64,000 bases of DNA from a virus: the IMG/VR virus record IMGVR_UViG_3300017605_000880, positions 8,978-72,977 of that record; one strand, written 5' to 3'. Both the position numbers and the translations under genes were made by a program. The notes under the pieces are model-generated. The model saw only the letters and a program-made list of their open reading frames with translations. It did no database searches and was not told the origin of the DNA. Below are positions 11,621 to 34,372 of the stretch, in pieces. Within the stretch, counting starts at the first letter, position 1; each line of letters begins with the position of its first letter.

Positions 11621-12541
11621 ATGCACCCACACGTGTGGAACCCCCGGCTGCACCCCCGCGATCGGATCGGCCAGTTCACCGACACCCCCGGCAGCGGATC
11701 GTGGCTCTCCCGGGCTGCCGAGCAGGCCCGGCGCGGGTTCACCGACGCCGAGCTTGCCCAACGCGAGCAGGACGTCAACGACCTGATCGCCGGGAGCCGT
11801 CATCTGGACACCCATCGGGTGCACAAACCGAACGGGCGGTGGTCCGACGAGCGGGCCGCCGCCCACCGGGAGATCCTGGACAGGGTGTGGGCGGAGAAGG
11901 CCACCCGGGTGCCGAACCAACACCGCGCGGTGATGACCGGCGGGTTGATGGGCGCTGGGAAGACCACCGTCCTGGCCGGACACCCGGAGATTGACATGTC
12001 CGACTACCTGATGGTGTCGGCCGACGATATGAAAGAGGAGATCATCCGCCACGGTCTGGTCCCGCAGATCCCGGGCGCGGAGCACCTGTCGCCGATGGAG
12101 CTGTCGGCGATGTACCACGTCGAATCGGCCTACTTGGCGGATGCACTGGCAGAGCGGGCGTACGCCGAGGGGAAGAACGTGATCCTCGACGCGTCGATGG
12201 GCGACCGGACTGCGCCTGCAGCGCGGCTGGCTCGGCTGCGCGATATGGGCTACCAGGTCCGGGGGGTGTTCGTCGACATCCCGGTCGAGACGAGCCTGGA
12301 GCGGGCGTCGGCCCGGTACCGCTCGGGGATGCAGCAGTGGGGCAGCGGGGCGGGTCCCGGCGGGCGGACGATCCCTCCGGCGTTGATCGAGGGGCAACGC
12401 GGCCCGGGTGGAATGACCAAGAACCGGGTCGTGTTCGACCAGCTGCGCGAGGAGGGTCTGTTCGGGGCGGGGTGGGAGGTGCACGACAACACCGGGTCGG
12501 CGCCGGTCCTACTGAAACGCGGAGGGGGAATACAGACGTGA
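11621..12541 (+). CDS. zeta-toxin (PezT)-like P-loop kinase with N-terminal HPR leader
   Basis: WNPRLHPRDRIGQF leader; GGLMGAGKTT, SADDMK, NVILDASM, RASAR...GGRTIP. Confidence 0.8.
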   Translation: MHPHVWNPRLHPRDRIGQFTDTPGSGSWLSRAAEQARRGFTDAELAQREQDVNDLIAGSRHLDTHRVHKPNGRWSDERAAAHREILDRVWAEKATRVPNQHRAVMTGGLMGAGKTTVLAGHPEIDMSDYLMVSADDMKEEIIRHGLVPQIPGAEHLSPMELSAMYHVESAYLADALAERAYAEGKNVILDASMGDRTAPAARLARLRDMGYQVRGVFVDIPVETSLERASARYRSGMQQWGSGAGPGGRTIPPALIEGQRGPGGMTKNRVVFDQLREEGLFGAGWEVHDNTGSAPVLLKRGGGIQT

Positions 12542-12574
12542 CACGGGGTGTTGCACTTAGAGAAGGAGTGTCGC

Positions 12575-12841
12575 ATGGGCAGCAGCAGGACGGTGCAGCA
12601 ACTGGTCGAGGACCTCGCATCTGGCAGGATCAACCTGGACCTGGCGGTGAGGGATTTTGGGACCCGCCGCTGGCCCGGCCCCGCCCCCGAGACCGCGCAG
12701 CAACGCCACGGGGTGCACGACGCGGACCTGCCCGACCCGAACAGTATCGATTGGGTGCAGATGCACCCCGGGCTGTCGGAGCAGCAACGCCGCGCGCTGC
12801 TGCGCGTGTACGACCAACGCACGTCCCGCTCTGGGCGCTGA
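12575..12841 (+). CDS. small protein, candidate partner/antitoxin of the zeta-like kinase
   Basis: Directly downstream; RBS AAGGAG. Confidence 0.55.
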   Translation: MGSSRTVQQLVEDLASGRINLDLAVRDFGTRRWPGPAPETAQQRHGVHDADLPDPNSIDWVQMHPGLSEQQRRALLRVYDQRTSRSGR

Positions 12842-13003
12842 TCGCGGTCCGCGAGCTGTGCTTCGCGGTGATGGTCGCCTCGTGCGGGTGGCTGGCGGTG
12901 TACGCGGTTTGGCCGTGGTCCCCGTTGCCGGCGCTGTTGGTGTTGTGGCTGGGGTCGCAGCTGGTGCCGTGGTTCCGCCAGCTGTCCCACCCCCGCCCCC
13001 GAG

Positions 13004-13033
13004 TTGCACACCGGGTGTCACCTGTGGTACAAT
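13004..13033 (+). promoter_or_regulatory. SigA-type promoter with operator half-site
   Basis: TTGCAC-18-TACAAT with extended TG; near-identical copy at 13537-13566. Confidence 0.75.
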
Positions 13034-13069
13034 AGTGGGGCAAGGGACAACTACAGAGAGGACCCTGCG

Positions 13070-13456: not shown

Positions 13457-13478
13457 CCTTGTTCCCTCTCTGATGGGC

Positions 13479-13513
13479 CCGGCCCCCCGGCGCGACGACG
13501 CCCGGGGGGCCGG
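13479..13513 (+). terminator. GC-rich hairpin terminator
   Basis: ccggccccccgg...ccggggggccgg. Confidence 0.6.
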
Positions 13514-14584: not shown

Positions 14585-15115
14585 ATGACCAAACCCGCCG
14601 AAGGTAAACGGCTAAGCGGCAACCCCGTCGGGATCCGGGTCAGTCCCAACAAGGACAGCCTCATCGCCCGCCGGATCCGCGCCGTCGAACTGCGCGTCCA
14701 AGGCATGACCCTCAACGAGGTCTCCAAAGCCACCGGCGTCAACCCCCGGACCGTCCGGATCGACATCGACACGGTGTTGCGTGAGCGGGACGCCGCGACC
14801 ATCCCGCTGCTGCGCGCGTTGGAAGAGGAACGGCTGGATCTGGCCGTCCGGACCGCTGCGAAGATCATCGAAGACCACCCCGGGACTGAACTGGCGTTGA
14901 AAGCCGTCGACCGGCTGATCCGGGCGTCGGCCCGCCGCGCCGGGCTGCTCGGGTTGGACGCCCCGGTCGAGTTGAACATCCGCAGCACCGAGGTGACCCA
15001 GGCGGATCTGGAGTTGGAGGAGCTGATCCGGGAGGCGCAGACCCGCAACGCGACCACCCTCGAGCAGCTGTTAGCGCAGGCAACCGGCGATGACCCAAAC
15101 CCTGCCGCAGCTTGA
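14585..15115 (+). CDS. terS: terminase small subunit (HTH)
   Basis: RAVELRVQGMTLNEVSKATGV HTH; RRAGLLGLDAP; immediately upstream of TerL. Confidence 0.7.
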   Translation: MTKPAEGKRLSGNPVGIRVSPNKDSLIARRIRAVELRVQGMTLNEVSKATGVNPRTVRIDIDTVLRERDAATIPLLRALEEERLDLAVRTAAKIIEDHPGTELALKAVDRLIRASARRAGLLGLDAPVELNIRSTEVTQADLELEELIREAQTRNATTLEQLLAQATGDDPNPAAA

Positions 15116-16703
15116 GCTTGACGCCCCCCCGTCGCCCTGGATCACCGACCCGTACCACTCTGAGGTCAACGCCGAGAACTTCGACCTGTACGGGTATCTG
15201 GCCCAGTTCGACCCCCGGCTGTTCACCCACAGCCGAGGCAGGCGTGAGATCACCCGGTACGACCCGATCCTGTTCGCGATCGTCTACTTCCCGCACCACA
15301 TCCGCACCGACGGGAGGATCTCGTTCGCCGACCCGCACTTCCAGTGGGCCGGCGCCGCCCGCCGGTGGGTCGTCCCTGCCGGGTTGAAACAAGACCGGCA
15401 CGCCTACGTCGCCCCCCGCGACACCGGCAAGTCGACGTGGTGGTTCCTGCTGCTGCCGATGTGGGCCGCCGCGCACGGACACATCAAGTTCGCTGCCGCG
15501 TTCGCCCACTCCGGCACCCAATCCGAAACCCACCTGCACGCGTTCCGGTCGGAGCTGGCCGAGAACCAACGGCTGCGGCAGGACTACCCCGACCTGTGCA
15601 CCCCCGCCCGGAAGCCGAACGGGAAGACCACCGCCGACAACATCCAGATGCTGCGGACCCGGGGCGGGTTTGCGTTCGCCGCCCGTGGGGTTGATGCGGC
15701 GAACCTCGGGCTGAAGGAGAAAGACACCCGCCCCGATCTGATCCTACTGGACGACGTCGAACCGGACGAGGCGAGTTACAGCCAGTACCAGATGGAGAAA
15801 CGACGCGGGACCATCATCGAGGCGATCCTGCCGATGAACCTCCGCGCCCATGTCGTCCTGGTCGGTACCGTCACCATGCCCGGCAGTATCGTCCACCAGC
15901 TGGTCGCAGTCGCCCGGGGTGACACCGAGGTCGAAGGCTGGGTTGGGGAGGAGAACTTCGCTCCGCACCACGCCCTGCCGATCTGCCTACGTGATGACGG
16001 GACCGAACGCAGTATCTGGCCCGCGAAGTGGCCGCTCGAGTTCCTGCAGTCGATCCGCCGGACCCGGTCCTACCTGAAGAACTTCGCCAACGACCCGATG
16101 GGCACCGAAGGCGGGTATTGGACGGTGGACGATTTCACCTACGGCGAGCTGGGCAACCCGACCCGCTGGTTCCTCGCGTTGGACCCGACGATCACCACGA
16201 AAACCCGATCCGACCCGGCCGGGGTGGCGGTCGTCTCCTACGCCCCCGGCTATGTGATCCCGTCCGAGGACCGGCGCAGGTTGCCAGTCAAGGTGCCGAG
16301 CCGGTGTTTGGTGGAGTTCGCGGCGGAGGTGAAGCTGGTCGGGGAGGGTCTGCGGCGGTACCTGTTGAAGGTCCTGCAGCGGTTCCCGAGGGTCAAGGCG
16401 ATCATCGTCGAAGGCAACCAGGGCGGGGAGAACTGGCACGCGATCCTGCACGATATGCCGGTCCGGGTGATTGTGGTGTGGTCGGAGGAGAAGAAGGAGG
16501 TCCGGGCGGCGAACCTGCTGGAGCTGTACCAACACAACCCGCCGAGGGTCCTGCACCCCGAACCTGGGGCGGTGGTTGCGTTGGAGCAGCAGATGGCGTC
16601 GTTCCCCCGGGGCAAAGACGACATGGTGGACGCGGTCGGGTCGGTCTGTCTGCGTGTCCTGGGGAAGCCGGCGAAGAAAGGCCAGACGTTCTTCCCGGTC
16701 TGA
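15090..16703 (+). CDS. terL: terminase large subunit
   Basis: Walker A APRDTGKST, Walker B LILLDDVE, VGT motif, nuclease ALDP, EGNQGG, DDMVDA. Confidence 0.92.
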   Translation: MTQTLPQLELDAPPSPWITDPYHSEVNAENFDLYGYLAQFDPRLFTHSRGRREITRYDPILFAIVYFPHHIRTDGRISFADPHFQWAGAARRWVVPAGLKQDRHAYVAPRDTGKSTWWFLLLPMWAAAHGHIKFAAAFAHSGTQSETHLHAFRSELAENQRLRQDYPDLCTPARKPNGKTTADNIQMLRTRGGFAFAARGVDAANLGLKEKDTRPDLILLDDVEPDEASYSQYQMEKRRGTIIEAILPMNLRAHVVLVGTVTMPGSIVHQLVAVARGDTEVEGWVGEENFAPHHALPICLRDDGTERSIWPAKWPLEFLQSIRRTRSYLKNFANDPMGTEGGYWTVDDFTYGELGNPTRWFLALDPTITTKTRSDPAGVAVVSYAPGYVIPSEDRRRLPVKVPSRCLVEFAAEVKLVGEGLRRYLLKVLQRFPRVKAIIVEGNQGGENWHAILHDMPVRVIVVWSEEKKEVRAANLLELYQHNPPRVLHPEPGAVVALEQQMASFPRGKDDMVDAVGSVCLRVLGKPAKKGQTFFPV

Positions 16704-16715: not shown

Positions 16716-17276
16716 GTGGATTGGGACCCGGCGAAACACCCGCGCGACCCGGACGACGGGCGGTTCACAGACAGTTGGGTCGGGGCGGCGTTGCGTCGGA
16801 TGCGGTTGCCCAGCTGGATCGAGAAGGTCACCCCGCAGCAAGCCGAGGCCATCCGCGCTGACCTTGCGGGGGAGGACAAGGCCAGGCGGTACATGCGGCT
16901 GGCGTTGACCGACACCGGCCACGGCGGGCAGTACGACGCCGTGACCCATGTGGCCCGTGATGAGCGTGGGCAGGTGGTCGCGGCGGTGTCGACCCGGGCC
17001 TACCAACAGTGGACGGAAGAGTCTGACAGCTTGGTCCCGCTGACCGGGATTGAGTATCTCGGGTCGGTCGCCCCGGGTGGTGGGACTGCGCTGGTGCGCA
17101 ACACCGTCTTGCGGGCCTGGGAAGCCGGCCACGCCGGTGTCTACCTGGAACCGGGGGAAGGTTCGCTGGGGTTTTGGGAGAAGCTGGGGTTCGTACCTGA
17201 CCCGCTCGAGTTCGGAACCGACGCCCATTACGGGTTGACTGCCGACCAGTTCGAGCAGTGGCTTGCCGAGCACTGA
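16716..17276 (+). CDS. GNAT acetyltransferase with HPR leader
   Basis: WDPAKHPRDPDDGRF; IEYLGSVAPGGGTALV...SLGFWEKLGF. Confidence 0.75.
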   Translation: MDWDPAKHPRDPDDGRFTDSWVGAALRRMRLPSWIEKVTPQQAEAIRADLAGEDKARRYMRLALTDTGHGGQYDAVTHVARDERGQVVAAVSTRAYQQWTEESDSLVPLTGIEYLGSVAPGGGTALVRNTVLRAWEAGHAGVYLEPGEGSLGFWEKLGFVPDPLEFGTDAHYGLTADQFEQWLAEH

Positions 17277-17287: not shown

Positions 17288-18121
17288 TTGGATTGGGACC
17301 CGGCACGGCACCCCCGATGGCCCGCCGACGCGCCCGAACACCGGGGCGGGCAGTTCGCCGACAGCCCCCTCGCGAACGAGTACCGGGCGTTCCAAGCCGC
17401 CGGGCAGGTCTGGCTGCGCAGCCTTTCCCGACGGGCACACCCGAAAGGCCGTTGGAAACCCGGCCGGTGGGCCATGGTCGACCCGCAGGCGTACCACAAA
17501 GAACAGCTGGCGCACATCCGCGACTCGTTCCTGCAGAACGGTGTGCACCCGCACCAGGCCCGGCAGATCACCCAGGAGATCGCCGACAGCACCACCCCGC
17601 CAGCAGTGGTCCTGCAGAACGGACCACACCGGTTGGTGTTCCAAGCCGAACACAGCGACTACGGCGCGGTTACGGAGATGTTCGACCGGCTGCACCACGC
17701 CGCGCCGGTCTCCACCCCGGCCCGGCTGCTGTTCGCCCGCGACATCCCCGACCGGCACCACGGGACCACGTTGATGCCGTCCGCGACGGCGATGTTCGAC
17801 ATGAAGATCTTCCAACCGCCCAGCCAGACTGACGTCGAAACCTCGATGCCGTCAGCCGGGCGGGTCCCGTGGTGGCAGTATGTGATGGCCCACGAGTGGG
17901 GCCACGTCGTCGGCGGCGATAACCGGCAGTTGGACCCGCCGATGCCGATGATGCAAGGACTGTCCGCCTACGTGTACCGGACGGATTGGGCGGACGAGGC
18001 CGAGCGGCGGCGGGAAGCCTACGCCGAGGCGTTCGCGGAGTGGTTCTTCGCCGACGGGCACCCCTCGATCGAGGCGGTCCGGGAGGCGGCGTTGGCGTTC
18101 AGATGGGAGTTCCCGGGATGA
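17288..18121 (+). CDS. zincin metallopeptidase with HPR leader
   Basis: TTG after GAGGAG; WDPARHPRWP...GGQF; HEWGH...SAY...EAYAEAF. Confidence 0.75.
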   Translation: MDWDPARHPRWPADAPEHRGGQFADSPLANEYRAFQAAGQVWLRSLSRRAHPKGRWKPGRWAMVDPQAYHKEQLAHIRDSFLQNGVHPHQARQITQEIADSTTPPAVVLQNGPHRLVFQAEHSDYGAVTEMFDRLHHAAPVSTPARLLFARDIPDRHHGTTLMPSATAMFDMKIFQPPSQTDVETSMPSAGRVPWWQYVMAHEWGHVVGGDNRQLDPPMPMMQGLSAYVYRTDWADEAERRREAYAEAFAEWFFADGHPSIEAVREAALAFRWEFPG

Positions 18122-18320: not shown

Positions 18321-20330
18321 TTGACCAGAGCGCTCACCCCGGCCCACGCCGCCCAGCTACAGGTCGGAACCATGACCACCGCAGGCTACGGCACCCCCGC
18401 CCTGGTCAACCCCGGTGGTCCGGTCGAGATCACCGTCACCCCCGACAGCGACGGCGACGGGCAGCACCTCGATACTGGCGCCACCGGGCTGTTGATGCGC
18501 AGCCTCGCCGAACTGGACGCCGCCCGCCCCGAGTACGCCCTAGCCGACGAGATGTACGACGGGACCGTCGAAGAACTACACGTCTCCGATGCGATCGCCC
18601 GGCTGTTGGCCCAATCCGGCGTGAACAACATCGAAAACCTGAACTACGCGAAAGTCCCAGTCGACACCATCGCCGAGAAGCTGCAGATCCGCGCGATCAC
18701 AGTCTCTGCCGGCGACCTGGCCGAGGACGACAGCCACGACCCCGACCGGGAGATCGGCGAAGCCGACCGCGACATCGAAGACGACCCCGAGGTCGACGAG
18801 CAGAAAGAAATCAGCAGCCACGCGCAGGAGCTGCTGGACGACATCCGGAAACGCAACCAGCTCGACGCGGAAGAACCCGAGCTGATGAAAACCTGCTCCA
18901 AATACGGCGAAGGATACCTGTTCGTCTGGCCGGTCGTGGCCGACCCGGAAGGCTACGAAGAAGCCTCACCGCTCGAACCGGACCAACCCGCCCGGATCGT
19001 CGGGGTCGACATGTTCGTCAACAGCCCGTACACCACCCGGGCGTACTACGACGCGGAGAACCCGCTGCGGATGACCCACGTCCTGAAATCGTGGGAGTGG
19101 TACGACGAGGCCAACGACACCGACCGGCTCCGCGCCACCCTGTACTTCCCCGACCGGATCGAACGTTGGGTGGTCAAGCTGCAGGGCGACCCGGCCCGCC
19201 GCGAAGACTGGGAACACTACGTCGAGGGCGACGAGCAGTGGCCGTTGGACAACCCGACCGGTGAGATCCCGTTCTTCCACCTGCGCAACGACCGCCCCTA
19301 CGGCAAACCGGAACACCGGGCAGCGTACGGGCCGCAGCGGTTGATCAACAAACTGGTCAGCACCCACGCGGCGACGATCGACTTCCAGGGCTGGCCCCAA
19401 CGCTATTTCCTGATCGATCCTAAAGCCGACGACCCGATGATGAACCTGCTCGACCCGGACAACCCGGAGGACGATGGGGACGATCCGGAGGGCAGTGGGC
19501 GCAGCCCGTTCCGGGCCGACCCGGCAGCAGTGTGGAAGATGTTCGCCAGCGCGGTCGGGCAGTTCCAGGCCGCCGACCCGCAGGTGTTCATGGCACCGCT
19601 GGACCGGTACATCAAATCGATCTCCGAACTGTGCGGGATCCCGCTGGACCGGTTCGTCGGCTATTCCACCCCGCCGTCGGGGGAGTCGCGGAAGGCCGCG
19701 AACGAACCGCTGTACGAGAAGGCCGGATCCCGGCAGGACTCGTATGGTCCGGTGATGGAGGACGCGTACGAGTTCGCGCTGCAGCTGCTGGGTGTGACCG
19801 ACGTGACGGTCGACGTGAAGTGGAAGCCGCTGCAGGTTGCGGTCGGGCTCGAGGACTGGAACATCATCCAGGCGAAGATCGGCAACGGTGTCCCGGTCCG
19901 GCAGGCGTTGATCGAAGCCGGCTACCCGGAGGACGAGGTCGACATCTGGCTGGTGGATGAGACCGGCGCGGACCTGGTCCGCCGGGTGGCGTTGTTGAAC
20001 TCGATCGGGACCGCGATCCAGGCGATGTCGGCCGGTGTCGCGGTCGGGATGGTCTCCCCGGAGCAGGCCGGCGACATCATCGCCCGGATCATCGGGGCGG
20101 TCGGGGAGAACCTGCCGCGCCTGGCGAAACCGGTCGCGTTGCACCCGCAGATGCAGCAGATGGCGGACCAGATGCAGAAGGACGCCCGGGGTCAGCAGAT
20201 GGCCGAACATATCGCGTCGGCTCCGGCGCAGCCGCAGTTCGACCCGGAGGGGAAGCCTATCCCGCCGCCGCCGGACCGGCCGCTGCCGCCTATGCCACCT
20301 CCACCTCCGCCGGTCAAGGTCGGCAGGTGA
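18321..20330 (+). CDS. portal protein (SPP1 gp6-like)
   Basis: NYAKVPVDTIAEKL, KYGEGYLFVW, NPTGEIPFFHL, QGWPQRY, PSGES; follows TerL. Confidence 0.9.
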   Translation: MTRALTPAHAAQLQVGTMTTAGYGTPALVNPGGPVEITVTPDSDGDGQHLDTGATGLLMRSLAELDAARPEYALADEMYDGTVEELHVSDAIARLLAQSGVNNIENLNYAKVPVDTIAEKLQIRAITVSAGDLAEDDSHDPDREIGEADRDIEDDPEVDEQKEISSHAQELLDDIRKRNQLDAEEPELMKTCSKYGEGYLFVWPVVADPEGYEEASPLEPDQPARIVGVDMFVNSPYTTRAYYDAENPLRMTHVLKSWEWYDEANDTDRLRATLYFPDRIERWVVKLQGDPARREDWEHYVEGDEQWPLDNPTGEIPFFHLRNDRPYGKPEHRAAYGPQRLINKLVSTHAATIDFQGWPQRYFLIDPKADDPMMNLLDPDNPEDDGDDPEGSGRSPFRADPAAVWKMFASAVGQFQAADPQVFMAPLDRYIKSISELCGIPLDRFVGYSTPPSGESRKAANEPLYEKAGSRQDSYGPVMEDAYEFALQLLGVTDVTVDVKWKPLQVAVGLEDWNIIQAKIGNGVPVRQALIEAGYPEDEVDIWLVDETGADLVRRVALLNSIGTAIQAMSAGVAVGMVSPEQAGDIIARIIGAVGENLPRLAKPVALHPQMQQMADQMQKDARGQQMAEHIASAPAQPQFDPEGKPIPPPPDRPLPPMPPPPPPVKVGR

Positions 20331-27200: not shown

Positions 27201-27380
27201 CGGTTCGACGCGGGGGAACACATCACCCCGTTGGAGATCGCGATGGTCGGGTGGCGGTCCCGGGCCGAGTTCGTCGACCTCGAGGATGCACCGGAGGATC
27301 CGAACGGCGACCCGATCGAGATGTGGTGGGGCAAACGGTTCCTGCTGGGCAGGAGTTGGTCAGGAGTGATGCAGCTGTGA
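24267..27380 (+). CDS. large multidomain (polyvalent-type) protein, QPRWP leader, C-terminal GNAT-like domain
   Basis: DQPRWPEGTP...GGGRF; QGGGFATRW...IGVSANLDVGGYAWAKMGFDF. Confidence 0.75.
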   Translation: MARRRYGMHPGDDDQPRWPEGTPVRPDGHGPGGGRFRGTGDVGGADVGDLVSGLQGASSRPWYETAAGQIAQQRGGGHPRVGYNLAVINAAQAQYNENRGDGYNDDQLPQLIGQYNVAEAQGNPAGQDVAVDQLRSWIDSHYPEQWAGALPARVEAREAPRAADQDQRNQRILIQALAFQSNIEANTGDPDDDLAIRIEALERHLGRTGHRVEADREAAALRQYMDSEMDREAAQNPVLRRQAGQGDLGEIQRLLEPAGQFAGPPSDHDRNLRLVNAMETPDGGEVTAVELLELVGNGHRLEVLGRHGWDRVETVDVSGEGDHFIYLENDPEPISMSPDSRLAIRFPRPSNVDDEWLQQHANRRGRAGGGPHPLGWDTGDEPAGEPELDLGGNPATDRDAWNRLVVYVARRSMASNPRSQFDDDITRHIIRDIGHPDVTDVQGVADSNAETLAARLQRLYGASIIDPPTRRAEPQFTIPETGVISAAEDVNRVRRVTGQAEDAHLTDMLRVVRGELPGDPHGMVAAMRQRLQQIHGVAVPGGDELDVLSDRDLRDLGIEYDIAVPAPPLAPDYRADLIARIRYRQQVDAANRAVSRAVAHSNVNWADTHISHQRPGFYRQAVDDYQMPLQIRDAQGQWRTVTSIGHPTNGQYEIIHDGPTGRTFVPENHMITARFGSDRSGPDSENRQRFNQQVAVVAESMLEQVAPEDRADDEGYTRLRAALDSYNDTTSNPDDQESIDSAVDDLVNELADWDIYFDVPPYQDYDSGGSSYLPPSRYSGGVYTGDDQEDDYELPAIPELYGNERLADVMGQWPTDHNEDLPSGYEDRASEIWDWHDRVTGYRAEVIGVSADGDGLSVEGRVYDGNNEIGKFTRTISPSRPHRIYHAYFKMYDNQGGGFATRWLDQVKQQYRDQGFTEIGVSANLDVGGYAWAKMGFDFASRDSARLTLIGMMSEITGAHRAGRIDDRTLQEAQELQRRFDAGEHITPLEIAMVGWRSRAEFVDLEDAPEDPNGDPIEMWWGKRFLLGRSWSGVMQL

Positions 27381-27887: not shown

Positions 27888-28904
27888 GTGCCGGCGCCCC
27901 GCGACCAGCCGCGTTGGCCCCGGGGATCGCCCGACGACCCGGAAGGTAGAGGCCAGGGCGGGCGGTGGCGTGAACGTAACGCCGCCACCATGTGGTCCGA
28001 CCAGCTGTACACCCGGATCGGCGGGATCCCACCATGGGCCGATCGGGGCTACATCGCCCGGTTGGCATTGCTGCGTCCGAAACGGGAAGGCCGCTTGTCG
28101 GGCGGGGCGGTGGCGCAGACCCAACAGCTGGAGTACGACGGCGGCGGGGTGGCCGTCCGCAAGACCTTCTCCGACGACGACGACGGGATACGGGCAGCTT
28201 CGGCCGAATATCTGTCGTCGTTGGTGTCGGACGTGGTCGGGGCGATGGCCCCGGCGGTGGTGAAAGACCCGACCGATCCGGAACACGCGGTGATCATGGG
28301 CCGGGTCAACGGCGACCTCGGGACGTTGCACACCGGCAGCAAAGATGCCACCGAGTGGGGCGAGGCCCGGTATTGGTACGCCGAGTCCGACGCCGGACGC
28401 CGGATCGGGCTGTTGGATGTCCTGATCGCGAACCGCGACCGGCATTCGATGAACTGGATCGTGTCGAACGAACTGGACGCCCCCCATGCGTGGCGGCCGG
28501 ACCAGGGTACGATCCGCCGGCCGATCCCGATCGACCATTCGGAGGCGTTTCAGGACACGTTGATCGCCGGGGCGGGGTTGAAGATCGTCAGCCCGGAAGG
28601 GCAGTACACCGCCCCGATGGAGCTTCTGGCGTACCGTGGGTTCACTGGGGCGTGGCTGCAACGTGCGGGGGAGTTGGCCGACCAGTCGGGGGTGGCGATC
28701 GACGCCTGGTCGTTGGGTGGGACGTTTGCCTACGCCGAGAAGAACCCGCTGCACCCGGACGATATCCCGGTCTTGCGGGCCCGGTTGGAGGCGCTGCGGC
28801 CCAGGTTCGCCGACGAGGATATGCTCGAGCAGTACACGTTGATGATGCGCCGGTTCGAACACCTCGCCCGGCGGGCCGCCGGGACCGAGCGGATGTTCCC
28901 GTGA
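27888..28904 (+). CDS. HipA/PI3-4-kinase-like kinase with QPRWP leader
   Basis: VRK, AEY, LLDVLIANRDRHSMNW, PIDHSEAF. Confidence 0.8.
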   Translation: MPAPRDQPRWPRGSPDDPEGRGQGGRWRERNAATMWSDQLYTRIGGIPPWADRGYIARLALLRPKREGRLSGGAVAQTQQLEYDGGGVAVRKTFSDDDDGIRAASAEYLSSLVSDVVGAMAPAVVKDPTDPEHAVIMGRVNGDLGTLHTGSKDATEWGEARYWYAESDAGRRIGLLDVLIANRDRHSMNWIVSNELDAPHAWRPDQGTIRRPIPIDHSEAFQDTLIAGAGLKIVSPEGQYTAPMELLAYRGFTGAWLQRAGELADQSGVAIDAWSLGGTFAYAEKNPLHPDDIPVLRARLEALRPRFADEDMLEQYTLMMRRFEHLARRAAGTERMFP

Positions 28905-29743
28905 GCCGCGCCTGGGACGAGGCGGAACATCCCCGCGACGAGGATGGGCGGTTCACCGAAGCCTGGGCCGCCTCGCTCGCCGCGACCCTCCCGCACCGGT
29001 TCATGACCCACGCCCAGCTGGCCGACTACGCCGACCGGACCGACTACACCCGGGCGTACTTCCACGGTGGCGGGTCGTCGATCACCGCCGTCCGGACCTA
29101 CAGCGACGGCCGGGAACTGCTCGAGAAGTACCACATCGACACCGACGACCAGGCCGATACTGAGGTTGCGGTCAGCTATATCGGCGGGGTGGTCCGGGCC
29201 CCGGTCCCCCCGGTGGTGCTACTGCCCGAGACCGACGAAGACGGCAACCTCGGGACCCTATCCGAATACATCCACGGCAAAACCGCCGCCCAGGTCCTGC
29301 CCGAGTACACGAGCATCGGGATCCCCGAGTACGAACGGCGAACCGGCGAACTGGCTGCGCAGTACCAGGACGACCGGCTCGGGTTGTTGGACCTGCTGAT
29401 CGGCAACACCGACCGGCACGCCGGCAACTGGATCATCGCCCCCACCGACCCGCACCACCGGGTCCAGACCGGGCCCAGCCGGGTGGTCGGGATCGACCAC
29501 GCGAACGCTGAGTTCCAAGGCCACACCACCAGCCCGTTCGCCGACTACCTGTACGACACGGCGGCGTTCCAGCTTAGGACCGGAACCCACAGCTGGCCAA
29601 CGGCGGAGTTGGATCGAATCCAACGCGGGATCGACGACCTGCACCATGTCGGGATTGTCCCCGCCTGGGAACACCGCAGCATGTCCGCGACACTGCGCGA
29701 CCTGCGCAAGCTCGCCCCGGACGCCCCCGGGAGGGTCCAGTGA
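28901..29743 (+). CDS. HipA/PI3-4-kinase-like kinase with HPR leader
   Basis: WDEAEHPRDEDGRF; LLDLLIGNTDRHAGNW, GIDHANA. Confidence 0.8.
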   Translation: MSRAWDEAEHPRDEDGRFTEAWAASLAATLPHRFMTHAQLADYADRTDYTRAYFHGGGSSITAVRTYSDGRELLEKYHIDTDDQADTEVAVSYIGGVVRAPVPPVVLLPETDEDGNLGTLSEYIHGKTAAQVLPEYTSIGIPEYERRTGELAAQYQDDRLGLLDLLIGNTDRHAGNWIIAPTDPHHRVQTGPSRVVGIDHANAEFQGHTTSPFADYLYDTAAFQLRTGTHSWPTAELDRIQRGIDDLHHVGIVPAWEHRSMSATLRDLRKLAPDAPGRVQ

Positions 29744-30615
29744 CCGACCAGCCGCGCTGGCCCGAAGGCACGCCCATCGCCCCCGACGGGAAAGGACCCG
29801 GCGGCGGGAGGTTCCGCGACAGCGTCCCCGAAGGGTGGGCGTTGCAGACCGCGCTGGTGCTCGGGCAGAAACAACCCTGGAAGCGGATCTCGCGCGGCGA
29901 GCTGAGCCTGGCCGTACGGCGCGGCACCGACGCTGCTGCCGCCGATAAGCTGCACGGCGGGGAGATGGCCCAGACTCAGATCTTCACCTACCCCGACGGG
30001 CAGGCGGTCGTCAGGAAAACCTACGGCCGGATGGACCACGATTCGGTCGATTCGGAATACCTGGTCGGGTTGGTGTCGGAGGCGATCGGCGCACCCACCC
30101 CGGCTGTGGTCCGCGACCCCGGCGGTGACCCGGCCGTGGTGTGGATGCAGTACGTGCCGGGTTCGTTGGCCGCCTCGCAGCTGCCCCGCCGGTTGACCCC
30201 CGACCCGTACGCTTCTGACGACGCGGCGCTGCTCGGGCTGCTCGACGTGCTGGCGTTGAACTGGGACCGCAACGCCGGCAACTGGAAGTACGCCCCCGGG
30301 AACCGGATCGTCGGGATCGACCACGGTGAGGCGTTCAAGCTGTCGGTCCCAGACTTTTCGGACGGATCGCCCGGCATCCCCAGGCAGATGCGCGACTCCG
30401 GGTTCACCAAACTGTACGCCGACCGGGGTGTGATGGGTTGGTCCTGGAAAGACAACGACCTGCACCCCGACGACCTGGAGGCGATCCGACCCCGGCTGCA
30501 GGCGCTGCGGGCACAGTTCGTCCAAGCCCACCTGGGGCACTACCACCAGGAGATGATGCGCCGACTGGGTGAGTTGCAACGCCGCGCCCGGGGGACCCGC
30601 CGGAGGATCCAATGA
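29740..30615 (+). CDS. HipA/PI3-4-kinase-like kinase with QPRWP leader
   Basis: DQPRWPEGTP; VRK, SEY, LLDVLALNWDRNAGNW, GIDHGEAF. Confidence 0.8.
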   Translation: MTDQPRWPEGTPIAPDGKGPGGGRFRDSVPEGWALQTALVLGQKQPWKRISRGELSLAVRRGTDAAAADKLHGGEMAQTQIFTYPDGQAVVRKTYGRMDHDSVDSEYLVGLVSEAIGAPTPAVVRDPGGDPAVVWMQYVPGSLAASQLPRRLTPDPYASDDAALLGLLDVLALNWDRNAGNWKYAPGNRIVGIDHGEAFKLSVPDFSDGSPGIPRQMRDSGFTKLYADRGVMGWSWKDNDLHPDDLEAIRPRLQALRAQFVQAHLGHYHQEMMRRLGELQRRARGTRRRIQ

Positions 30616-31676
30616 CCCTGCCGATCGGACCGACCGACGAACAACTCGACGTCGAACTGCGCGCCGCTGCGATCTTAACCAACGAACTGCGCCAGCAGCT
30701 GGAGGCCGCGACCCGCCAGATCGCCGCGTTGTACATCGGGCTCGCGGGCAGTTTGAGCCAACCACTGCCGCCGCCGGTCCGTCGCCGGTTCGCCGACGCC
30801 GCCGGACGGATCATCGCCCGGGTGGCGGTCGACATCCGGGTCCCGTTGTGGGAGATGGTCCTGCAGGCGTTAGACCTGGGGCAGCAGTCGGCGACCCCTT
30901 TCGTACAGCAGGTCCCGGCACGGCTGCGCAGCTACAGCCAATACACCTACGACCAGCTGATGGCCGGGTTGGAGCAGTTGGAACGCCCACCGGCGACGGT
31001 GCACCAGTGGGTGGTTGCGTTGGCAGCGGCTGCCCAGGCAAGGATCGACGCGCAGTTGTTGTCCGCACAGACAGCCGGGCAGGTCGGTGCCCCTCCGGAG
31101 GACTTCGCGGAGGTGCTAGCGCGGATTATCGCCCCCGCCGAGCAGGCGTTGACTGGGCTCGAACGCGACACCCGGTGGGCGACCAACGCCGGGTTCAACA
31201 TGGGGGTCCGGGAGGTTGCCGACCTGGCGGGGGTGTCGCGGATGTGGATCGCCGAACGCGACGCCTGCCTGCACTGCCTGGCGTTGTCCGGTGAGATCGC
31301 CGGGCCGGGCCAGCCGTACAACGCGAACCTGACGTTCTACATCGGGCCGAACGGGCTGTTCAAACCGCTCCCGGTCTATCCGATCGGCCCGTTGTGGGGT
31401 CCGCCCCGGCATCCGAACTGCCGGTGTTTCCAACGACCTGCGCCGGTCCTGGCGGGATATCCGGTCCAGCCGTGGGAGTCGGGGCCGTACACCCCGGCGG
31501 AGGCGTTGAAACGCGAAGCCCGCCGGTCGGTGCTGCGCGGGGTGAGTGGGTCGGATTCGCTGCCGGCCCGGTTGCGCGCCACGGATGCTTTACTGGCCGT
31601 GGGTGCTGGGTTGCCGGTGTCGGTGGAGCGGCGGGCCCGGCGGGCGGTACGTCGTGGCGGATATGGGGGGAGGTGA
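30612..31676 (+). CDS. MuF / SPP1 gp7-like minor head protein
   Basis: WIAERDACLHCLALSG...PPRHPNCRC. Confidence 0.8.
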   Translation: MTLPIGPTDEQLDVELRAAAILTNELRQQLEAATRQIAALYIGLAGSLSQPLPPPVRRRFADAAGRIIARVAVDIRVPLWEMVLQALDLGQQSATPFVQQVPARLRSYSQYTYDQLMAGLEQLERPPATVHQWVVALAAAAQARIDAQLLSAQTAGQVGAPPEDFAEVLARIIAPAEQALTGLERDTRWATNAGFNMGVREVADLAGVSRMWIAERDACLHCLALSGEIAGPGQPYNANLTFYIGPNGLFKPLPVYPIGPLWGPPRHPNCRCFQRPAPVLAGYPVQPWESGPYTPAEALKREARRSVLRGVSGSDSLPARLRATDALLAVGAGLPVSVERRARRAVRRGGYGGR

Positions 31677-31681
31677 TTGGG

Positions 31682-31774
31682 ATGGCGAAGAAGGGCCGGT
31701 TGGGCAACTTCGGCGGGAAGAAGGCCCCGCCGTTCACGAAGAAGAGCGGCGGCAAGGGCGGTAAGAAGAAGTGA
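31682..31774 (+). CDS. 30-aa Lys/Gly-rich peptide
   Basis: MAKKGRLGNFGGKKAPPFTKKSGGKGGKKK; GGAGGTG RBS; GTGA coupling. Confidence 0.6.
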   Translation: MAKKGRLGNFGGKKAPPFTKKSGGKGGKKK

Positions 31775-32532
31775 CGCAGCAGCGCTGGCCCCGGGGCACT
31801 CCGGTCGCCCCGGGTGGCCACGGCCCGGGTGGCGGGCGCTACCGGGGTGTGTCCAGTTCGGCGTACGGTGATGATGACCATGATGTGTGGGTCAGTACCG
31901 TGTCGGACCGGATGGACCGGATGGAGGTGTTGAAGCGGACCCCGCCGTGGATCTCTGGGCGGGCCGAGTGGAAGCGACACCACCGCGACCAGTGGGTGCA
32001 GAAGGCAGCCGAGACCCTGGGTGAGCTGGGCTACCAGGCGGCGGACGCGCCGAACGGCGGGTTGTTGCCTCGCCCGCAGGGTGCGGCGGGATCCTACCAC
32101 TACCGGTTCTCCCCTGAGACCCTCGGCGAGATCTACGACCAACACGCCTACCGGTACTACCCGCACGACTACATGATCGACGCCATCGGCATCCTCGAGG
32201 ACGGGTCGCCTGAGGGGCTGCCTGAGCTGCGCAACGCCCGAGGCGACTGGCGGGTCTCGATGCGGGCCTACGGCGAAAGCCCGGACACGAAAGAGATCCT
32301 CGGGCATGCCCTGGCCGCCCACCCCGACTACGCCACCTCCGGGGATTTCTCCATCCGGACACCGTCGGGGGAGTGGGCGATGCTGGAGGAGATGTACGTC
32401 GACCCGGAAGACCCGGACACGCTTGAGTTGCACGCTGGGGATCAGGTGTGGCAGATCGACACCAGCGATGATGTTCTGATCCGGCGCAACTGGGAGCCGA
32501 AATACCGCAGCCCCATACTCGGGAAGAGGTAA
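31771..32532 (+). CDS. QRWP-leader protein with repeated beta domain
   Basis: QQRWPRGTPVAPGGHGPGGGRY; C-terminus FSIRTPSGEWAMLEEMY...DDVLIRR. Confidence 0.7.
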   Translation: MTQQRWPRGTPVAPGGHGPGGGRYRGVSSSAYGDDDHDVWVSTVSDRMDRMEVLKRTPPWISGRAEWKRHHRDQWVQKAAETLGELGYQAADAPNGGLLPRPQGAAGSYHYRFSPETLGEIYDQHAYRYYPHDYMIDAIGILEDGSPEGLPELRNARGDWRVSMRAYGESPDTKEILGHALAAHPDYATSGDFSIRTPSGEWAMLEEMYVDPEDPDTLELHAGDQVWQIDTSDDVLIRRNWEPKYRSPILGKR

Positions 32533-32534
32533 CC

Positions 32535-34175
32535 GTGGCCCGCAGGTTCGTCGAACGCGACCACCCCCGGTGGCCGGCTGAGGCGCCGGACAGTAAGGGC
32601 GGGGAGTTCCGCGACAAGACCCCCGAGATCGGCGGGGGCGGCGGAGATTGGGCGGATCGACTGTCCGGGCGGATCGGGGTGCAGCCGGCGGGCCGGCACG
32701 GGTCGGTCGCGACCGGGCTGCGCCAGACCTGCCCGGTGTGTTACCGGCAGGTGAAGGTGGTCGGGTCGGGGAAGCTGTCGACCCACAATGGGCACGACGG
32801 GAAACGCTGCCCCGGGTCGGGGATGCCGGCGACGGTCAAACCACCGGCGGATATCCAACGGGCCCCCACCCGCAGGACCCCCGGTGCGAAACCACCGGCG
32901 AAGAAGGCCACCCGCCGCGCGGCTGGCACGCTGCGGCCCCCGCCGCCGCCGAAGGTCACCCCCGGGGCGTGGGATGCGCCGGTCACGGGTGCGGCCGAGA
33001 TCAGGATGGCCGACTGGCGGTCCCGTACGATGCACCGTCAGGCCGACGGGTCGATGTACCACCCGAACACCGCCGCCACCCGCGCGGCGGAGATCCAACG
33101 GCTACACGACGACATCCAGCAGGAGGAGAAGAACCTGGAGGGCCGGCGCAACCGGGTGATGATCGATGCCGCCAGAGCCGCCCTGGGGTTGAAGCACTGG
33201 GAGTACCTGCCGGTCGGTGTGGCGCTGGACCTACATAAGACCGACGCCGACACTGACCCGCACGTGCTCGCGGCGGAGGCTAAGCTGCGGGCGTTGCGCA
33301 ACCAGCTGGACTACGCCGAGTCGGCGATCAAACAGGACCGGCCGTTCGATCCGACTAACCCGCTTGCCTACTACGGTCCGTTGTTGCATATCGAATCGAA
33401 CGACTGGTTCGCCTACGGTGTCCTGGATCAACTCGAGCAGCGGGTCCCGCCCGCGTTCCACAAAGCAGTAGCGGAATGGCTGGCGTACCAGAGCCGAAAC
33501 AACAACAGCTCCGGGATTTGGGTCGGCAGCACCCACAGCATCCGCGACCTGGACAACCTGAAACGGCAGATCACCAAACCGCCGCGCGGGTGGGGCAAGA
33601 AAGCCACCATGGCCACCTGGGACGACGTGGACGGGGTGGTGTCCGGCAGCGCCGTCTACGCGGTCGTGCACACCGAGAACAGTGAATCGCACCTGCGCAG
33701 CCGGCGCGGGTACCGCAGGATGGCCGGGCAACCGGACGAGCTTGCCGTCGGCGACGCTGGGCTGCACGAGTTCGGCCACGTCCTAGATGCTGCGATGGGG
33801 TTCTTCAACACCAACCGGGCCTACCGGTGGGACGACGCATCGGCCCAGCGGAAGTGGCGTCTGATCCACGGGAAGGTCAAACGCGACTCGCGGACCCTGT
33901 CGCCGTACTACCGGCAGAAAGGCGACGCCGGCCCGGAGGAGTTCTGGGCGGATGCGTTCTTCACCTGGGCGTCAGCCGACCCGGAACTCGACCCGATCGA
34001 CAAGGACGTCGGGTATCCACGGCGGCGGACGATCACGAAGCAGGACCGGCTGTTGGCCGAGACCTACGGGACCAGCTTGGCGTTGGCGCAGGAGATCTCG
34101 GATTACTTCAACGGGCTACACCGGGATCTGGTCAGCGGGCGGCGGCTACCGAGGATCGAACAGAGGAGGCCGTGA
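32535..34175 (+). CDS. HPR-leader protein with Zn finger and zincin (anthrax LF-like) domain
   Basis: DHPRWPAEAPDSKGGEF; CPVC...H...CPGSG; LHEFGHVLD...PYY...EEFWADAF. Confidence 0.75.
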   Translation: MARRFVERDHPRWPAEAPDSKGGEFRDKTPEIGGGGGDWADRLSGRIGVQPAGRHGSVATGLRQTCPVCYRQVKVVGSGKLSTHNGHDGKRCPGSGMPATVKPPADIQRAPTRRTPGAKPPAKKATRRAAGTLRPPPPPKVTPGAWDAPVTGAAEIRMADWRSRTMHRQADGSMYHPNTAATRAAEIQRLHDDIQQEEKNLEGRRNRVMIDAARAALGLKHWEYLPVGVALDLHKTDADTDPHVLAAEAKLRALRNQLDYAESAIKQDRPFDPTNPLAYYGPLLHIESNDWFAYGVLDQLEQRVPPAFHKAVAEWLAYQSRNNNSSGIWVGSTHSIRDLDNLKRQITKPPRGWGKKATMATWDDVDGVVSGSAVYAVVHTENSESHLRSRRGYRRMAGQPDELAVGDAGLHEFGHVLDAAMGFFNTNRAYRWDDASAQRKWRLIHGKVKRDSRTLSPYYRQKGDAGPEEFWADAFFTWASADPELDPIDKDVGYPRRRTITKQDRLLAETYGTSLALAQEISDYFNGLHRDLVSGRRLPRIEQRRP

Positions 34176-34372
34176 TGTCGGTCGGTGAACCGTGGCAGGA
34201 CAAGAATGGCCAGTGGATGGTCCCGACCCGGGTTGAAGGCGGCGACGAGGACGACCAGCGGGTGGTGGGGATGGGTTGGGCTCCGTTGACCCCGGACCAT
34301 CCGTTGTACGAGCAGTGGCTGCAGTACATCCGGGCTGGTTGGGCACGCGAGGTCGACGCCCGGATCAGCTAG
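34175..34372 (+). CDS. small partner protein
   Basis: TGATG coupling; LTPDHPLYEQW. Confidence 0.55.
   Translation: MSVGEPWQDKNGQWMVPTRVEGGDEDDQRVVGMGWAPLTPDHPLYEQWLQYIRAGWAREVDARIS

What the first reader, a model, noticed from the sequence alone, without database searches (positions are those of the whole stretch)
11621..34372. Leader-tagged effector arsenal in the head module: 13 proteins share one N-terminal HPR/QPRWP address tag
Seen: type A leaders are 11621 WNPRLHPRDRIGQF, 16716 WDPAKHPRDPDDGRF, 17288 WDPARHPRWP..GGQF, 20334 WGPDDERKHPRDTEGRW, 21378 WNEKDHPRNPEDGKF, 22676 WDPGKHPRDLRDGQF, 23566 WHEKDHPRNPEDGQF, 28901 WDEAEHPRDEDGRF and 32535 FVERDHPRWP..GGEF. Type B leaders are 24267 and 29740 DQPRWPEGTP..PDG.GPGGGRFR, 27888 DQPRWPRGSP..GQGGRWR and 31771 QRWPRGTP..GPGGGRYR. 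A C-terminal copy ends 22271. Many leaders continue with a W-x-x-x-I/L-S-D-x-I-G helix. Cargoes are a zeta-like kinase, 2 GNATs, 2 zincins, 3 HipA/PI3K-like kinases and unknown domains. Apart from the 11621 gene, all are interleaved with terL, portal, MuF and scaffold. Known: MuF-fused toxins and polyvalent proteins carry such enzyme domains in phage head modules, and T4 internal proteins use an N-terminal capsid-targeting sequence. Inference: the tag is a modular capsid-loading (portal/scaffold/DNA-binding) signal that packages many stand-alone enzymes for co-injection with DNA, for host takeover or anti-defence.
Basis: partly seen in the sequence, partly recalled or inferred. Interest (0 to 1): 0.95.

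Follow-up and report, generated by a model that had tools for sequence, protein, structure and literature searches.

The report
Shared header tag on phage-head cargo genes
Thirteen genes of an uncultured actinomycete phage, mostly set among its head-assembly genes, start with the same short peptide, which in many other phages precedes each enzyme module of giant head-associated proteins and so probably marks proteins carried in the capsid and injected with the DNA, although this has not been tested.

Summary
Nine "type A" and four "type B" N-terminal leaders, plus one C-terminal copy, are present on the + strand (9 regex hits against 0.06–0.17 in shuffles). The two types are variants of one motif, [W/F]-x-x-x-x-[H/Q]-P-R-x(2–20)-G-x-[F/W/Y].

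The motif is not private to this phage. A profile of it finds 713 protein clusters. The best are giant polyvalent proteins (MuF, ADP-ribosyltransferase, NUDIX, GNAT domains) carrying 2–17 internal copies, about one per domain. This phage is therefore a fully split form of such a protein.

In 32 prokaryote genomes the motif lies within 7.5 kb of a portal, MuF or TerL gene in 15. It never shares a contig with a conjugation coupling protein (0 of 32). Close relatives gain and lose cassettes at the leaders.

Packaging itself is not shown. The motif also heads chromosomal muramidase/inhibitor cassettes far from any head gene. It was absent from all 8 cultured-phage head regions I checked.

I found no Pfam or NCBIfam model and no paper describing it. 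This scan has met the same motif on at least nine other genomes.

Verdict: a real, apparently undescribed cargo "header". The loading role is plausible (about 0.5); processing is the main rival.

The parts
11621..12541 (+). Tagged zeta-toxin-like kinase, encoded outside the head module
   Evidence: Leader at residues 6-19. PF06414 E 5.9e-15. The cargo is homologous to internal domains of the multi-motif giants P0103 and P0076.
15090..16703 (+). Terminase large subunit
   Evidence: 44-47% identical to terminases of Streptomyces phages Zuko, Dryad and Wentworth.
16716..17276 (+). Tagged protein, GNAT-like (lead only)
   Evidence: Leader. Atlas lead 0.89 to acetyltransferase clusters. No Pfam or PDB hit. 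Absent from relatives L003, L004 and L005.
17288..18121 (+). Tagged protein, zincin-like (HExxH)
   Evidence: Leader of the bridging HPRWP...GGQF type. Peptidase_M48 E 0.018, sub-threshold. Atlas leads to M90/ATLF-type peptidases. Absent from relatives.
18321..20330 (+). Portal protein (SPP1 type), untagged
   Evidence: PF05133. 0 of 120 homologues carry the motif.
20334..21179 (+). Tagged protein of unknown function, starting 3 nt after the portal stop
   Evidence: Weakest leader (24 bits). Shares a C-terminal module with 22676 and 31771 through P0109.
21378..22232 (+). Tagged protein of unknown function
   Evidence: Leader plus W-helix. The cargo diverges from relatives right after the leader, at w21493.
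22271..22468 (+). 65-aa basic ORF ending in a copy of the motif; likely a decayed cassette
   Evidence: The stretch w22273-22476 has no match in L003, L004 or L005.
22676..23563 (+). Tagged protein of unknown function
   Evidence: Leader plus W-helix. Its leader DNA w22685-22707 matches twice in L004 and L005, around an inserted extra gene.
23566..24033 (+). Tagged small protein with a helical cargo domain
   Evidence: AF2 model: core 1-20 with pLDDT 74-82 and a beta-bridge at R12/F19; helix 26-39; disordered 40-77; cargo 79-153 with pLDDT about 90. No fold match.
24267..27380 (+). Tagged 1037-aa protein (type B leader)
   Evidence: Residues about 789-879 are homologous to post-motif domains in L038 and L103.
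27888..28904 (+). Tagged PI3/PI4-kinase-like kinase 1 (type B leader)
   Evidence: PF00454 E 4.7e-6, 27.1 bits, equal to the cut-off.
28901..29743 (+). Tagged kinase 2 (type A leader)
   Evidence: PF00454 at 19.2 bits, below the cut-off. Paralogue of kinases 1 and 3. The AF2 model is unusable, pLDDT 41.5.
29740..30615 (+). Tagged kinase 3 (type B leader)
   Evidence: PF00454 E 0.078, sub-threshold. Paralogy.
30612..31676 (+). MuF-like minor head protein, untagged
   Evidence: PHROG head-and-packaging hits. 8 of 87 homologues carry PF04233 and 0 of 87 carry the motif.
31771..32532 (+). Tagged protein of unknown function (type B leader)
32535..34175 (+). Tagged zincin-like protein (HExxH)
   Evidence: Bridging HPRWP...GGEF leader. 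ATLF E 0.0025, sub-threshold.
34276..35229 (+). Scaffolding protein
   Evidence: PF06810 E 8.3e-11.
36992..38131 (+). Major capsid protein
   Evidence: phrog_10 major head protein, E 7.8e-15.

Best explanation
The 13 genes are the free-standing units of a phage 'polyvalent protein' that has been split into separate genes. Each unit is a short header, a flexible Gly-rich spacer and one cargo domain. The header core is [W/F]-x-x-x-x-[H/Q]-P-R-x(2-20)-G-x-[F/W/Y], predicted to form a small hairpin.

Shown: the header is the same motif that precedes nearly every domain of giant MuF/ART-type polyvalent proteins across many bacterial phyla. It is strongly linked to head-assembly genes and not to conjugation genes. 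Cassettes are gained and lost at the header.

Inferred: the header marks proteins that are incorporated into the procapsid and leave with the DNA. In this split form each enzyme must be loaded in trans, so each keeps its own header. That includes the zeta-like kinase encoded 3 kb upstream of terL. In this actinophage clade the header is followed by a clade-specific amphipathic 'W-A-x-R-I-S-D-x-I-G' helix. I propose this helix is the adaptor for this clade's own head proteins, while the universal core serves a function common to all lineages. The receptor is not identified.
For: The motif is real and far above chance. A profile search of 1.84 billion representatives gave 713 proteins at E<=1e-3. 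Of the best 150, 103 are >=1000 aa with 2-17 regex copies each, and 24 are <500 aa, 19 of them with the His at residue 7-13. All 5 giants scanned carry domains typical of polyvalent proteins: ART-PolyVal, Phage_Mu_F, NUDIX, GNAT and DUF7178. Across 621 copies, P and R are 100% conserved, H 90% (Q 9%) and G 94%; a G/S/A-rich spacer follows, and the median spacing is 257 aa. Two window cargoes, the zeta-like kinase and part of 24267, recur as post-motif domains in multi-motif proteins. Head association: 4 of 7 viral arrays lie next to TerL, portal, MuF or an S78 protease. In 15 of 32 genomes the motif is on the same contig and <=7.5 kb from portal, MuF or TerL. A T4SS coupling protein is present in 9 of those 32 genomes and is never on the motif's contig. 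In G025 a portal domain and a motif lie in what appears to be one 783-aa frame. Conservation is at the protein level: synonymous codons vary at the invariant residues, and the motif persists in loci with G+C from 0.28 to 0.70. The AF2 model shows the core, spacer, helix, disordered linker and folded cargo of a tethered tag. The W-helix follows 8 of 13 window leaders. In helix-blind samples it follows 1 of 14 and 0 of 21 N-terminal tags and 3 of 200 internal copies.
Against: There is no direct evidence of packaging: no virion proteomics exists for any motif-bearing protein. None of the 8 cultured-phage head regions fetched carries the motif, including AXL1, whose MuF-ART polyvalent gp16 is virion-associated without it. 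So the motif is not required for packaging polyvalent proteins. In fused polyproteins, a loading tag in front of every domain is redundant. A near-invariant motif across phyla is hard to reconcile with receptors as divergent as portal (both PF05133 and PF04860 types occur), capsid or scaffold. In genome G024 the motif heads three chromosomal muramidases, at least two of them paired with LprI-like genes and flanked by Mur ligase and BipA, with no head gene within +-9 kb. In 17 of 32 genomes no head gene was found on the motif's contig, though many of those contigs are short. The W-helix contrast is biased by my profile; only one search is unbiased.
Confidence: 0.5

Rival explanations
1. The header is a processing or junction signal and not a loading tag. 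It would mark where polyproteins are cut into units, by a prohead protease, a zincin module or a host protease, or serve as a handle for unfolding and threading each domain through the tail. In this reading the stand-alone genes simply copy the end state of a cut unit.
For: There is about one copy per domain in giants, at domain boundaries, followed by a flexible spacer. Zincin-like modules are among the tagged cargo here and in L092. L077 has an S78 prohead protease next to its tagged ORFs. Stand-alone proteins begin 1-8 residues before the Trp, as a cut product would. Within individual giants the 3-6 residues just upstream of the Trp are conserved.
Against: Free-standing genes have nothing to cut, yet they keep the motif under protein-level conservation in 13 paralogues and across phyla. 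No prohead protease was detected in this window, nor near the G024 cassettes. No conserved P1/P1' position appears in the logo upstream of the Trp across proteins.
Confidence: 0.25
2. The header is a general delivery tag for interbacterial toxins and is used by an export or injection device that need not be a DNA-filled capsid.
For: In G024 three tagged muramidases (two GH108, one phage lysozyme) lie among housekeeping genes, and at least two are followed by opposite-strand LprI-like lysozyme-inhibitor genes. This is the layout of toxin-immunity pairs. The tag sits at the extreme N-terminus in 21 of 40 instances in the genome loci.
Against: The only consistent neighbours found are head genes (15 of 32 genomes), and no T4SS coupling protein is linked. 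G024 itself has a TerL on another contig, so particles made in trans are available. Related Melainabacteria-type genomes G013, G015 and G018 have the tag 2-7.5 kb from TerL. No other secretion system was surveyed.
Confidence: 0.1
3. The header acts in the infected cell. It would bind a universally conserved host molecule (DNA, a chaperone, a prolyl isomerase or a hub protein) to localise, refold or activate each injected enzyme.
For: Near-invariance of W, H, P, R, G and F from Actinomycetota to Bacteroides and Melainabacteria fits a universally conserved partner better than fast-evolving head proteins. One copy per domain fits a need local to each domain.
Against: No partner was identified and no similarity to a known host-binding motif was found (Pfam and NCBIfam give nothing at E<=10 and E<=1). 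This reading does not explain the tight linkage to head genes any better than the loading model does.
Confidence: 0.1
4. The repeated leader is only a DNA-level recombination junction that lets cassettes be swapped, with no function as a peptide.
For: 15 of 42 synteny breakpoints between the window and three close relatives fall in leader zones, against 12% expected (p 6e-5; unique positions 10 of 28, p 1e-3). Extra genes sit between duplicated leader DNA, and L003 keeps a 49-aa leader remnant where two cassettes are missing.
Against: The peptide is conserved in loci with G+C from 0.28 to 0.70 and with varying synonymous codons, so selection acts on the protein. Breakpoints at gene starts are expected for any cassette system.
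Confidence: 0.05

Closest known systems
Phage-type polyvalent proteins (Iyer, Burroughs, Anand, de Souza, Aravind 2017, PMC5512222; passages read)
   Same: The enzyme repertoire is similar (MuF, ADP-ribosyltransferase, zincin peptidase, GNAT, NUDIX, kinases). The genes are encoded with the portal-terminase packaging genes, and the proteins are predicted to be packaged and injected. The window's header is the junction motif of such proteins, and two of its cargo domains recur inside them.
   Different: Here the units are 13 separate genes, not 2-15 domains in one chain. MuF and portal are untagged and separate. The passages searched in the paper contain no 'HPR' or 'linker', so the motif itself appears not to be described there; its supplementary files could not be seen.
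MuF polymorphic toxins of temperate phages (Jamet et al. 2017, PMC5576092; term search only)
   Same: They are variable toxic or enzymatic domains tied to the head protein MuF, with cassette-like turnover. Immunity-like partners occur in some tagged loci.
   Different: None of the 13 tagged proteins has a MuF domain. The link to the head would have to be non-covalent. No conserved pre-toxin motif is mentioned in that paper under the six terms I searched.
Capsid targeting sequence (CTS) of phage T4 internal proteins and Alt (recalled; reviews seen only as listings and abstracts)
   Same: It is a short N-terminal peptide shared by unrelated proteins that are carried in the head and injected. It is portable in principle.
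   Different: There is no sequence similarity. The T4 CTS is removed by the prohead protease, and no protease was found in this window. The present motif is conserved across phyla and also occurs internally, up to 17 regex copies per protein.
Encapsulin cargo-loading peptides (recalled, not checked here)
   Same: They are short conserved peptides on flexible linkers that dock diverse enzymes to the inside of an HK97-fold shell, and they are conserved across phyla.
   Different: They are usually C-terminal, and the sequence differs. No binding to the capsid protein was tested here.

Membership tests
Phage-type polyvalent proteins (Iyer et al. 2017) | Two to 15 distinct effector domains in one polypeptide | tested here: not met
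   Each of the 13 window genes carries one header. Most have one recognisable cargo region. Only the 1037-aa 24267 protein may hold more.
Phage-type polyvalent proteins (Iyer et al. 2017) | Encoded in the portal-terminase head/packaging neighbourhood | tested here: met
   12 of 13 genes lie between terL (15090) and the scaffold gene (34276), interleaved with portal and MuF.
Phage-type polyvalent proteins (Iyer et al. 2017) | Domains homologous to those of recognised polyvalent proteins | tested here: met
   The header matches 2-17 internal copies in proteins with ART-PolyVal and Phage_Mu_F. The zeta-like kinase and a 24267 segment match post-motif domains. The other 11 cargoes gave no such match in my local set.
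Phage-type polyvalent proteins (Iyer et al. 2017) | Packaged in the capsid and delivered with the DNA | not testable with these tools
   This needs virion proteomics. The only proteomics seen (AXL1 gp16) concerns a protein without the motif.
MuF polymorphic toxins (Jamet et al. 2017) | N-terminal MuF domain fused to a variable C-terminal toxin | tested here: not met
   MuF is a separate 354-aa gene (30612-31676). 0 of 13 tagged proteins hit PF04233 and 0 of 87 MuF homologues carry the motif.
MuF polymorphic toxins (Jamet et al. 2017) | Cognate immunity gene downstream of the toxin | not tested
   The small ORFs after the window's tagged genes were not analysed for immunity function. LprI-like partners were seen only in G024.
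T4-type capsid targeting sequence | Short N-terminal peptide shared by unrelated head-internal proteins | tested here: met
   The header occupies the first ~10-45 residues of all 13 proteins.
T4-type capsid targeting sequence | Removed by the prohead protease at a defined site after assembly | tested here: inconclusive
   No prohead protease was detected among the window ORFs scanned, but several ORFs have no assignment, and cleavage cannot be seen from sequence.
T4-type capsid targeting sequence | Sufficient to load a foreign protein into the procapsid | not testable with these tools
   This requires reporter fusions.

The most novel reading that the evidence does not exclude
The header is a portable, pan-bacterial address label with two parts: a universal core and a lineage-specific adaptor element. 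It lets any protein, whether encoded in the head module, elsewhere in the phage (the zeta-like kinase) or even in the host chromosome (the muramidase/inhibitor cassettes of G024), be loaded in trans into phage capsids. That would make capsids a general device for delivering proteins between bacteria, with an arsenal that is reshuffled at the header.
Probability: 0.3. Interest if true: 0.9.

Novelty: new variant of a known kind. Interest (0 to 1): 0.72.

Why it matters
How tailed phages other than T4 choose which proteins to carry inside the head is largely unknown. A short, conserved and apparently undescribed header, found on hundreds of protein clusters from many phyla, would give a sequence handle for three things. 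It would allow injected effectors (anti-defence enzymes, toxins, kinases) to be predicted directly from genomes. It would help explain how polyvalent proteins are built, split and reshuffled. And it would offer a way to engineer capsids that carry chosen proteins. This window is the clearest natural experiment for it: 13 separate genes, two header variants and a clade-specific helix, so the tag, the helix and the cargo can each be tested on their own.

Tried and rejected
Co-folding: I sent portal (residues 60-600), MuF and the 45-aa leader, each as an alignment, to complex prediction. The answer was 'no answer' (score 0.00, controls not run). This is neither support for nor evidence against binding.

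Folds: the AF2 model of kinase 28901 was unusable, with mean pLDDT 41.5. Foldseek of the 23566 model against the PDB gave no match at E<=0.001.

Sequence-level cargo checks: phmmer against PDB sequences gave nothing useful for 16716, the C-terminus of 24267, 32535 or 17288. PHROGs gave no function for the tagged proteins.

Leader searches: tblastn of a 45-aa leader against 50,697 phage records found nothing at E<=1, because the query is too short. The word-indexed search with the leader profile returned only 29 unnamed metagenome proteins. Pfam at E<=10 and NCBIfam at E<=1 returned nothing for the leader segments.

Cultured examples: the 8 phage head regions fetched (Zuko, Dryad, AXL1, Salgado, AVIO78A, Vibrio 1.032.O, RHEph19, RDJL Phi 1) have no motif. 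The idea that AXL1 gp16 would supply virion proteomics for the motif was therefore dropped.

A conjugative-element origin was considered and rejected for lack of any linkage to the coupling protein. Plasmid hits to P0005 covered mostly its MuF region.

Literature: plus term searches inside PMC5512222 and PMC5576092, found no description of the motif.

Public names for 10 giants gave only 'SPP1 gp7 family putative phage head morphogenesis protein' for P0005.

Full report
OBSERVATION. A six-frame regex for the type A pattern gives 9 hits, all leaders. Q.?RWP gives 5 hits, 4 of them leaders. A looser regex gives 9 hits, against means of 0.06 and 0.165 in 200 shuffles of each kind. Two leaders (17288 HPRWP...GGQF and 32535 HPRWP...GGEF) bridge types A and B. 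In the alignment of all 14 copies, R and G are invariant and P nearly so, so the two types are variants of one motif. A profile of the alignment finds 14 places in the whole record, all inside the window and on the + strand. Gene starts are credible: 8 of 13 lie -4 to +12 nt from the upstream stop, and most others have an SD-like motif.

MODULE MAP. terL is at 15090-16703, 44-47% identical to terminases of Streptomyces phages. The portal is at 18321-20330 (PF05133). MuF is at 30612-31676: it has a PHROG head hit, and 8 of 87 homologues carry PF04233, some named from Actinomadura and Acrocarpospora. The scaffold gene is at 34276-35229 (PF06810) and the capsid gene at 36992-38131. In the relatives Zuko and Dryad these genes are nearly contiguous and the motif is absent from the first 25 kb. 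In the window about 14 kb of tagged genes lie between them. No prohead protease was detected among the ORFs scanned. Cargo labels are confirmed only in part; the details are in the observation check.

THE MOTIF ELSEWHERE. The profile searched against 1.84 billion representative proteins gave 713 hits at E<=1e-3 and 76 at E<=1e-10. Of the best 150, 103 are 1000 aa or longer with 2-17 regex copies each, 23 are 500-999 aa, and 24 are under 500 aa with the motif mostly at the very N-terminus (His at residue 7-13 in 19 of 24). All five giants scanned carry domains typical of polyvalent proteins: ART-PolyVal in two, and Phage_Mu_F, DUF7178, NUDIX and GNAT in one each. Across 621 copies the consensus is [W56%/F25%]-D-E-x-x-H(90%, Q 9%)-P(100%)-R(100%)-D-x-x-G(94%)-[R/K]-[F/W], followed by a G/S/A-rich spacer. 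Median spacing is 257 aa (10th-90th percentile 150-517), about one copy per domain, and a domain follows the last copy. The window's zeta-like kinase domain recurs about 80 aa after a motif in the multi-motif proteins P0103 and P0076. Part of 24267 recurs after motifs in L038 and L103. The window is thus a fully split version of a polyvalent protein. Intermediate forms exist: arrays of two to four adjacent tagged ORFs in other viral contigs.

CONTEXT. Of 7 arrays whose neighbours I scanned, 4 lie beside head genes. L103 and L062 follow TerL. L061 lies next to a MuF-like ORF (25.6 bits, below the cut-off). L077 runs TerL, a PF04860 portal, the tagged ORFs and then an S78 protease. For L012, L069 and L092 nothing was recognised.

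The confirmed loci span Actinomycetota, Alphaproteobacteria, Desulfovibrio, Melainabacteria, Clostridia, Bacteroides, Treponema, Verrucomicrobia and Planctomycetes.

In the 32 genomes behind these loci I located the motif and then Phage_Mu_F, Phage_portal, SPP1_portal, TerL_nuclease, Phage_capsid and Terminase_6N. In 15 of 32 genomes a motif is on the same contig and within 7.5 kb of one of these genes: G002, G003, G005, G008, G009, G010, G013, G015, G018, G019, G025, G027, G028, G030 and G031. In the other 17 no head gene was found on the motif's contig, and many of those contigs are only a few kb long. As a control, the T4SS coupling protein PF02534 is present in 9 of 32 genomes and never on a motif contig. 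Both portal families occur next to the motif. In G025 a portal domain and a motif lie in what appears to be one 783-aa frame. None of 87 MuF homologues or 120 portal homologues of the window's own proteins carries the motif.

EVIDENCE THAT DOES NOT FIT A CAPSID-ONLY READING. In genome G024 (G+C 0.31) three paralogous proteins start with the canonical motif at residue 4. They carry Glyco_hydro_108 (two of them) or Phage_lysozyme. Two of them are followed by opposite-strand genes that hit the lysozyme inhibitor LprI (37 and 17.8 bits). The flanks are Mur ligase and BipA, and no head gene lies within +-9 kb. G024 does have a Terminase_6N on another contig, so loading in trans into a resident prophage's particles is possible but unshown. 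In addition, none of 8 cultured-phage head regions carries the motif, including AXL1, whose MuF-ART protein gp16 was found in purified virions (48 peptides; passages of PMC9206674). The motif is therefore not needed for packaging a polyvalent protein.

CASSETTE TURNOVER. Three viral contigs have portals 96-98% identical to the window's and similar tagged arrays. All three lack w16709-18282, which holds genes 16716 and 17288, and L003 keeps a 49-aa leader remnant at that spot. L003 and L005 have an extra tagged gene after the portal, flanked by two matches to w20326-20375. L004 and L005 have another extra gene, flanked by two matches to the 22676 leader. Cargo similarity stops just after the leaders at w21493 and w23679-23714. 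In total 15 of 42 breakpoints fall in leader zones that cover 12% of the region (p 6e-5); for unique positions it is 10 of 28 (p 1e-3). The caveat is that any gene start is a likely cassette boundary.

A BIPARTITE LEADER. Among small proteins found with my profile it follows 34 of 43 tags, against 6 of 520 internal copies in giants, but that sample is biased because the profile included the helix columns. In loci found by the core DNA pattern alone, it follows 1 of 14 and 0 of 21 N-terminal tags, and 2 of 181 and 1 of 19 other copies. The helix is therefore specific to this high-G+C clade. Other lineages show their own conserved stretch after the spacer. In the AF2 model of the 23566 protein (26-row alignment, mean pLDDT 73), the core at residues 1-20 has pLDDT 74-82 with a beta-bridge between R12 and F19. 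A low-confidence spacer follows, then a helix at 26-39, a disordered stretch at 40-77 and a confident helical cargo domain at 79-153. This is the anatomy of a flexibly tethered tag.

MECHANISM. I commit to this reading: header plus domain is the unit of head-borne cargo. In this phage the units are translated separately and loaded in trans, the core serving a function common to all lineages and the clade-specific helix acting as adaptor (confidence 0.5). Shown: homology of the header to the polyvalent junction motif, linkage to head genes, protein-level conservation and cassette exchange. Inferred: incorporation into the procapsid, the receptor, and injection. The main rival is a processing or threading signal (0.25). 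It explains one copy per domain but not why 13 free-standing genes keep the motif. Lesser rivals are a delivery tag that is not capsid-specific (0.1), a function in the infected cell (0.1) and a mere recombination junction (0.05).

KNOWN OR NEW. Polyvalent proteins, MuF-fused toxins and the T4 capsid targeting sequence are known. The window fails the defining feature of the first two: it has one cargo per gene, and no MuF fusion. It shares only position and logic with the third. No Pfam or NCBIfam model matches the header. My literature searches found no description of it, and supplements could not be read. Earlier notes of this scan report the same motif on at least nine other genomes with similar readings. 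They are unchecked AI notes and I do not count them as evidence. I independently reproduced three of their claims: polyvalent-protein homology, cassette swapping behind the tag, and tagged toxin/immunity-like cassettes.

Context counts rest on a few Pfam families and on fragmentary MAG contigs. Distances in the 32 genomes were worked out by hand from the tool tables. The T4 CTS, the SPP1 gp7-portal interaction and encapsulin peptides are cited from recall.

Noticed in passing
L246 (G024:C2:173000-192900), locus coordinates 8849-15250: Three paralogous muramidase genes (two GH108, one phage lysozyme) each start with the canonical header. They alternate with small opposite-strand genes, two of which hit the lysozyme inhibitor LprI. 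The set lies between a Mur ligase gene and BipA and looks like a chromosomal toxin-immunity array.
   Followed up: partly
window 20334-21179, 22676-23563, 31771-32532: The C-terminal ~60-110 residues of these three tagged proteins all match the same C-terminal region (about 209-315) of protein P0109. Its function is unknown and Pfam gives no hit.
   Followed up: partly
P0002 and P0007: Two giant proteins of 7334 and 5313 aa, with 17 profile-confirmed copies mapped in P0002 and 20 and 16 matched stretches in the library search, are each listed on a contig of the same 409,570-base length from NCBI. If that is one contig, it may be a very large phage or element with an extreme fused form of the system.
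   Followed up: no
G008:C9:194595-197902 and G025:C73:81406-82872: Fused head proteins occur next to the tag. In G008 portal and MuF domains share one 1080-aa frame, followed by a tagged 429-aa ORF. In G025 a portal domain and a motif appear to share one 783-aa frame.
   Followed up: no
L003 2608-2754; window 22271-22468: These are headers without cargo: a 49-aa ORF in L003 at the spot where the window has two extra cassettes, and a 65-aa basic ORF in the window that ends in the motif and has no match in the three relatives. They are probably footprints of cassette loss.
   Followed up: partly
loci L174, L147, L187, L213, L218, L228, L237 (Melainabacteria-type) and L184, L214, L065 (Christensenella-type): After the universal core and a variable spacer, each lineage has its own conserved second stretch: a ...[AE]D[IL]LY... 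element in the first group and a DYKYPQYLAR... element in the second. These parallel the W-helix of the window's clade.
   Followed up: partly
window 1077-3260, 3257-4699, 5438-6586: The upstream early region encodes a primase/helicase-type protein (phrog_10729, E 4.9e-40) and two proteins of PHROG families with unknown function. The tagged zeta-like kinase lies between this region and the small terminase-like HTH gene at 14585-15115.
   Followed up: no
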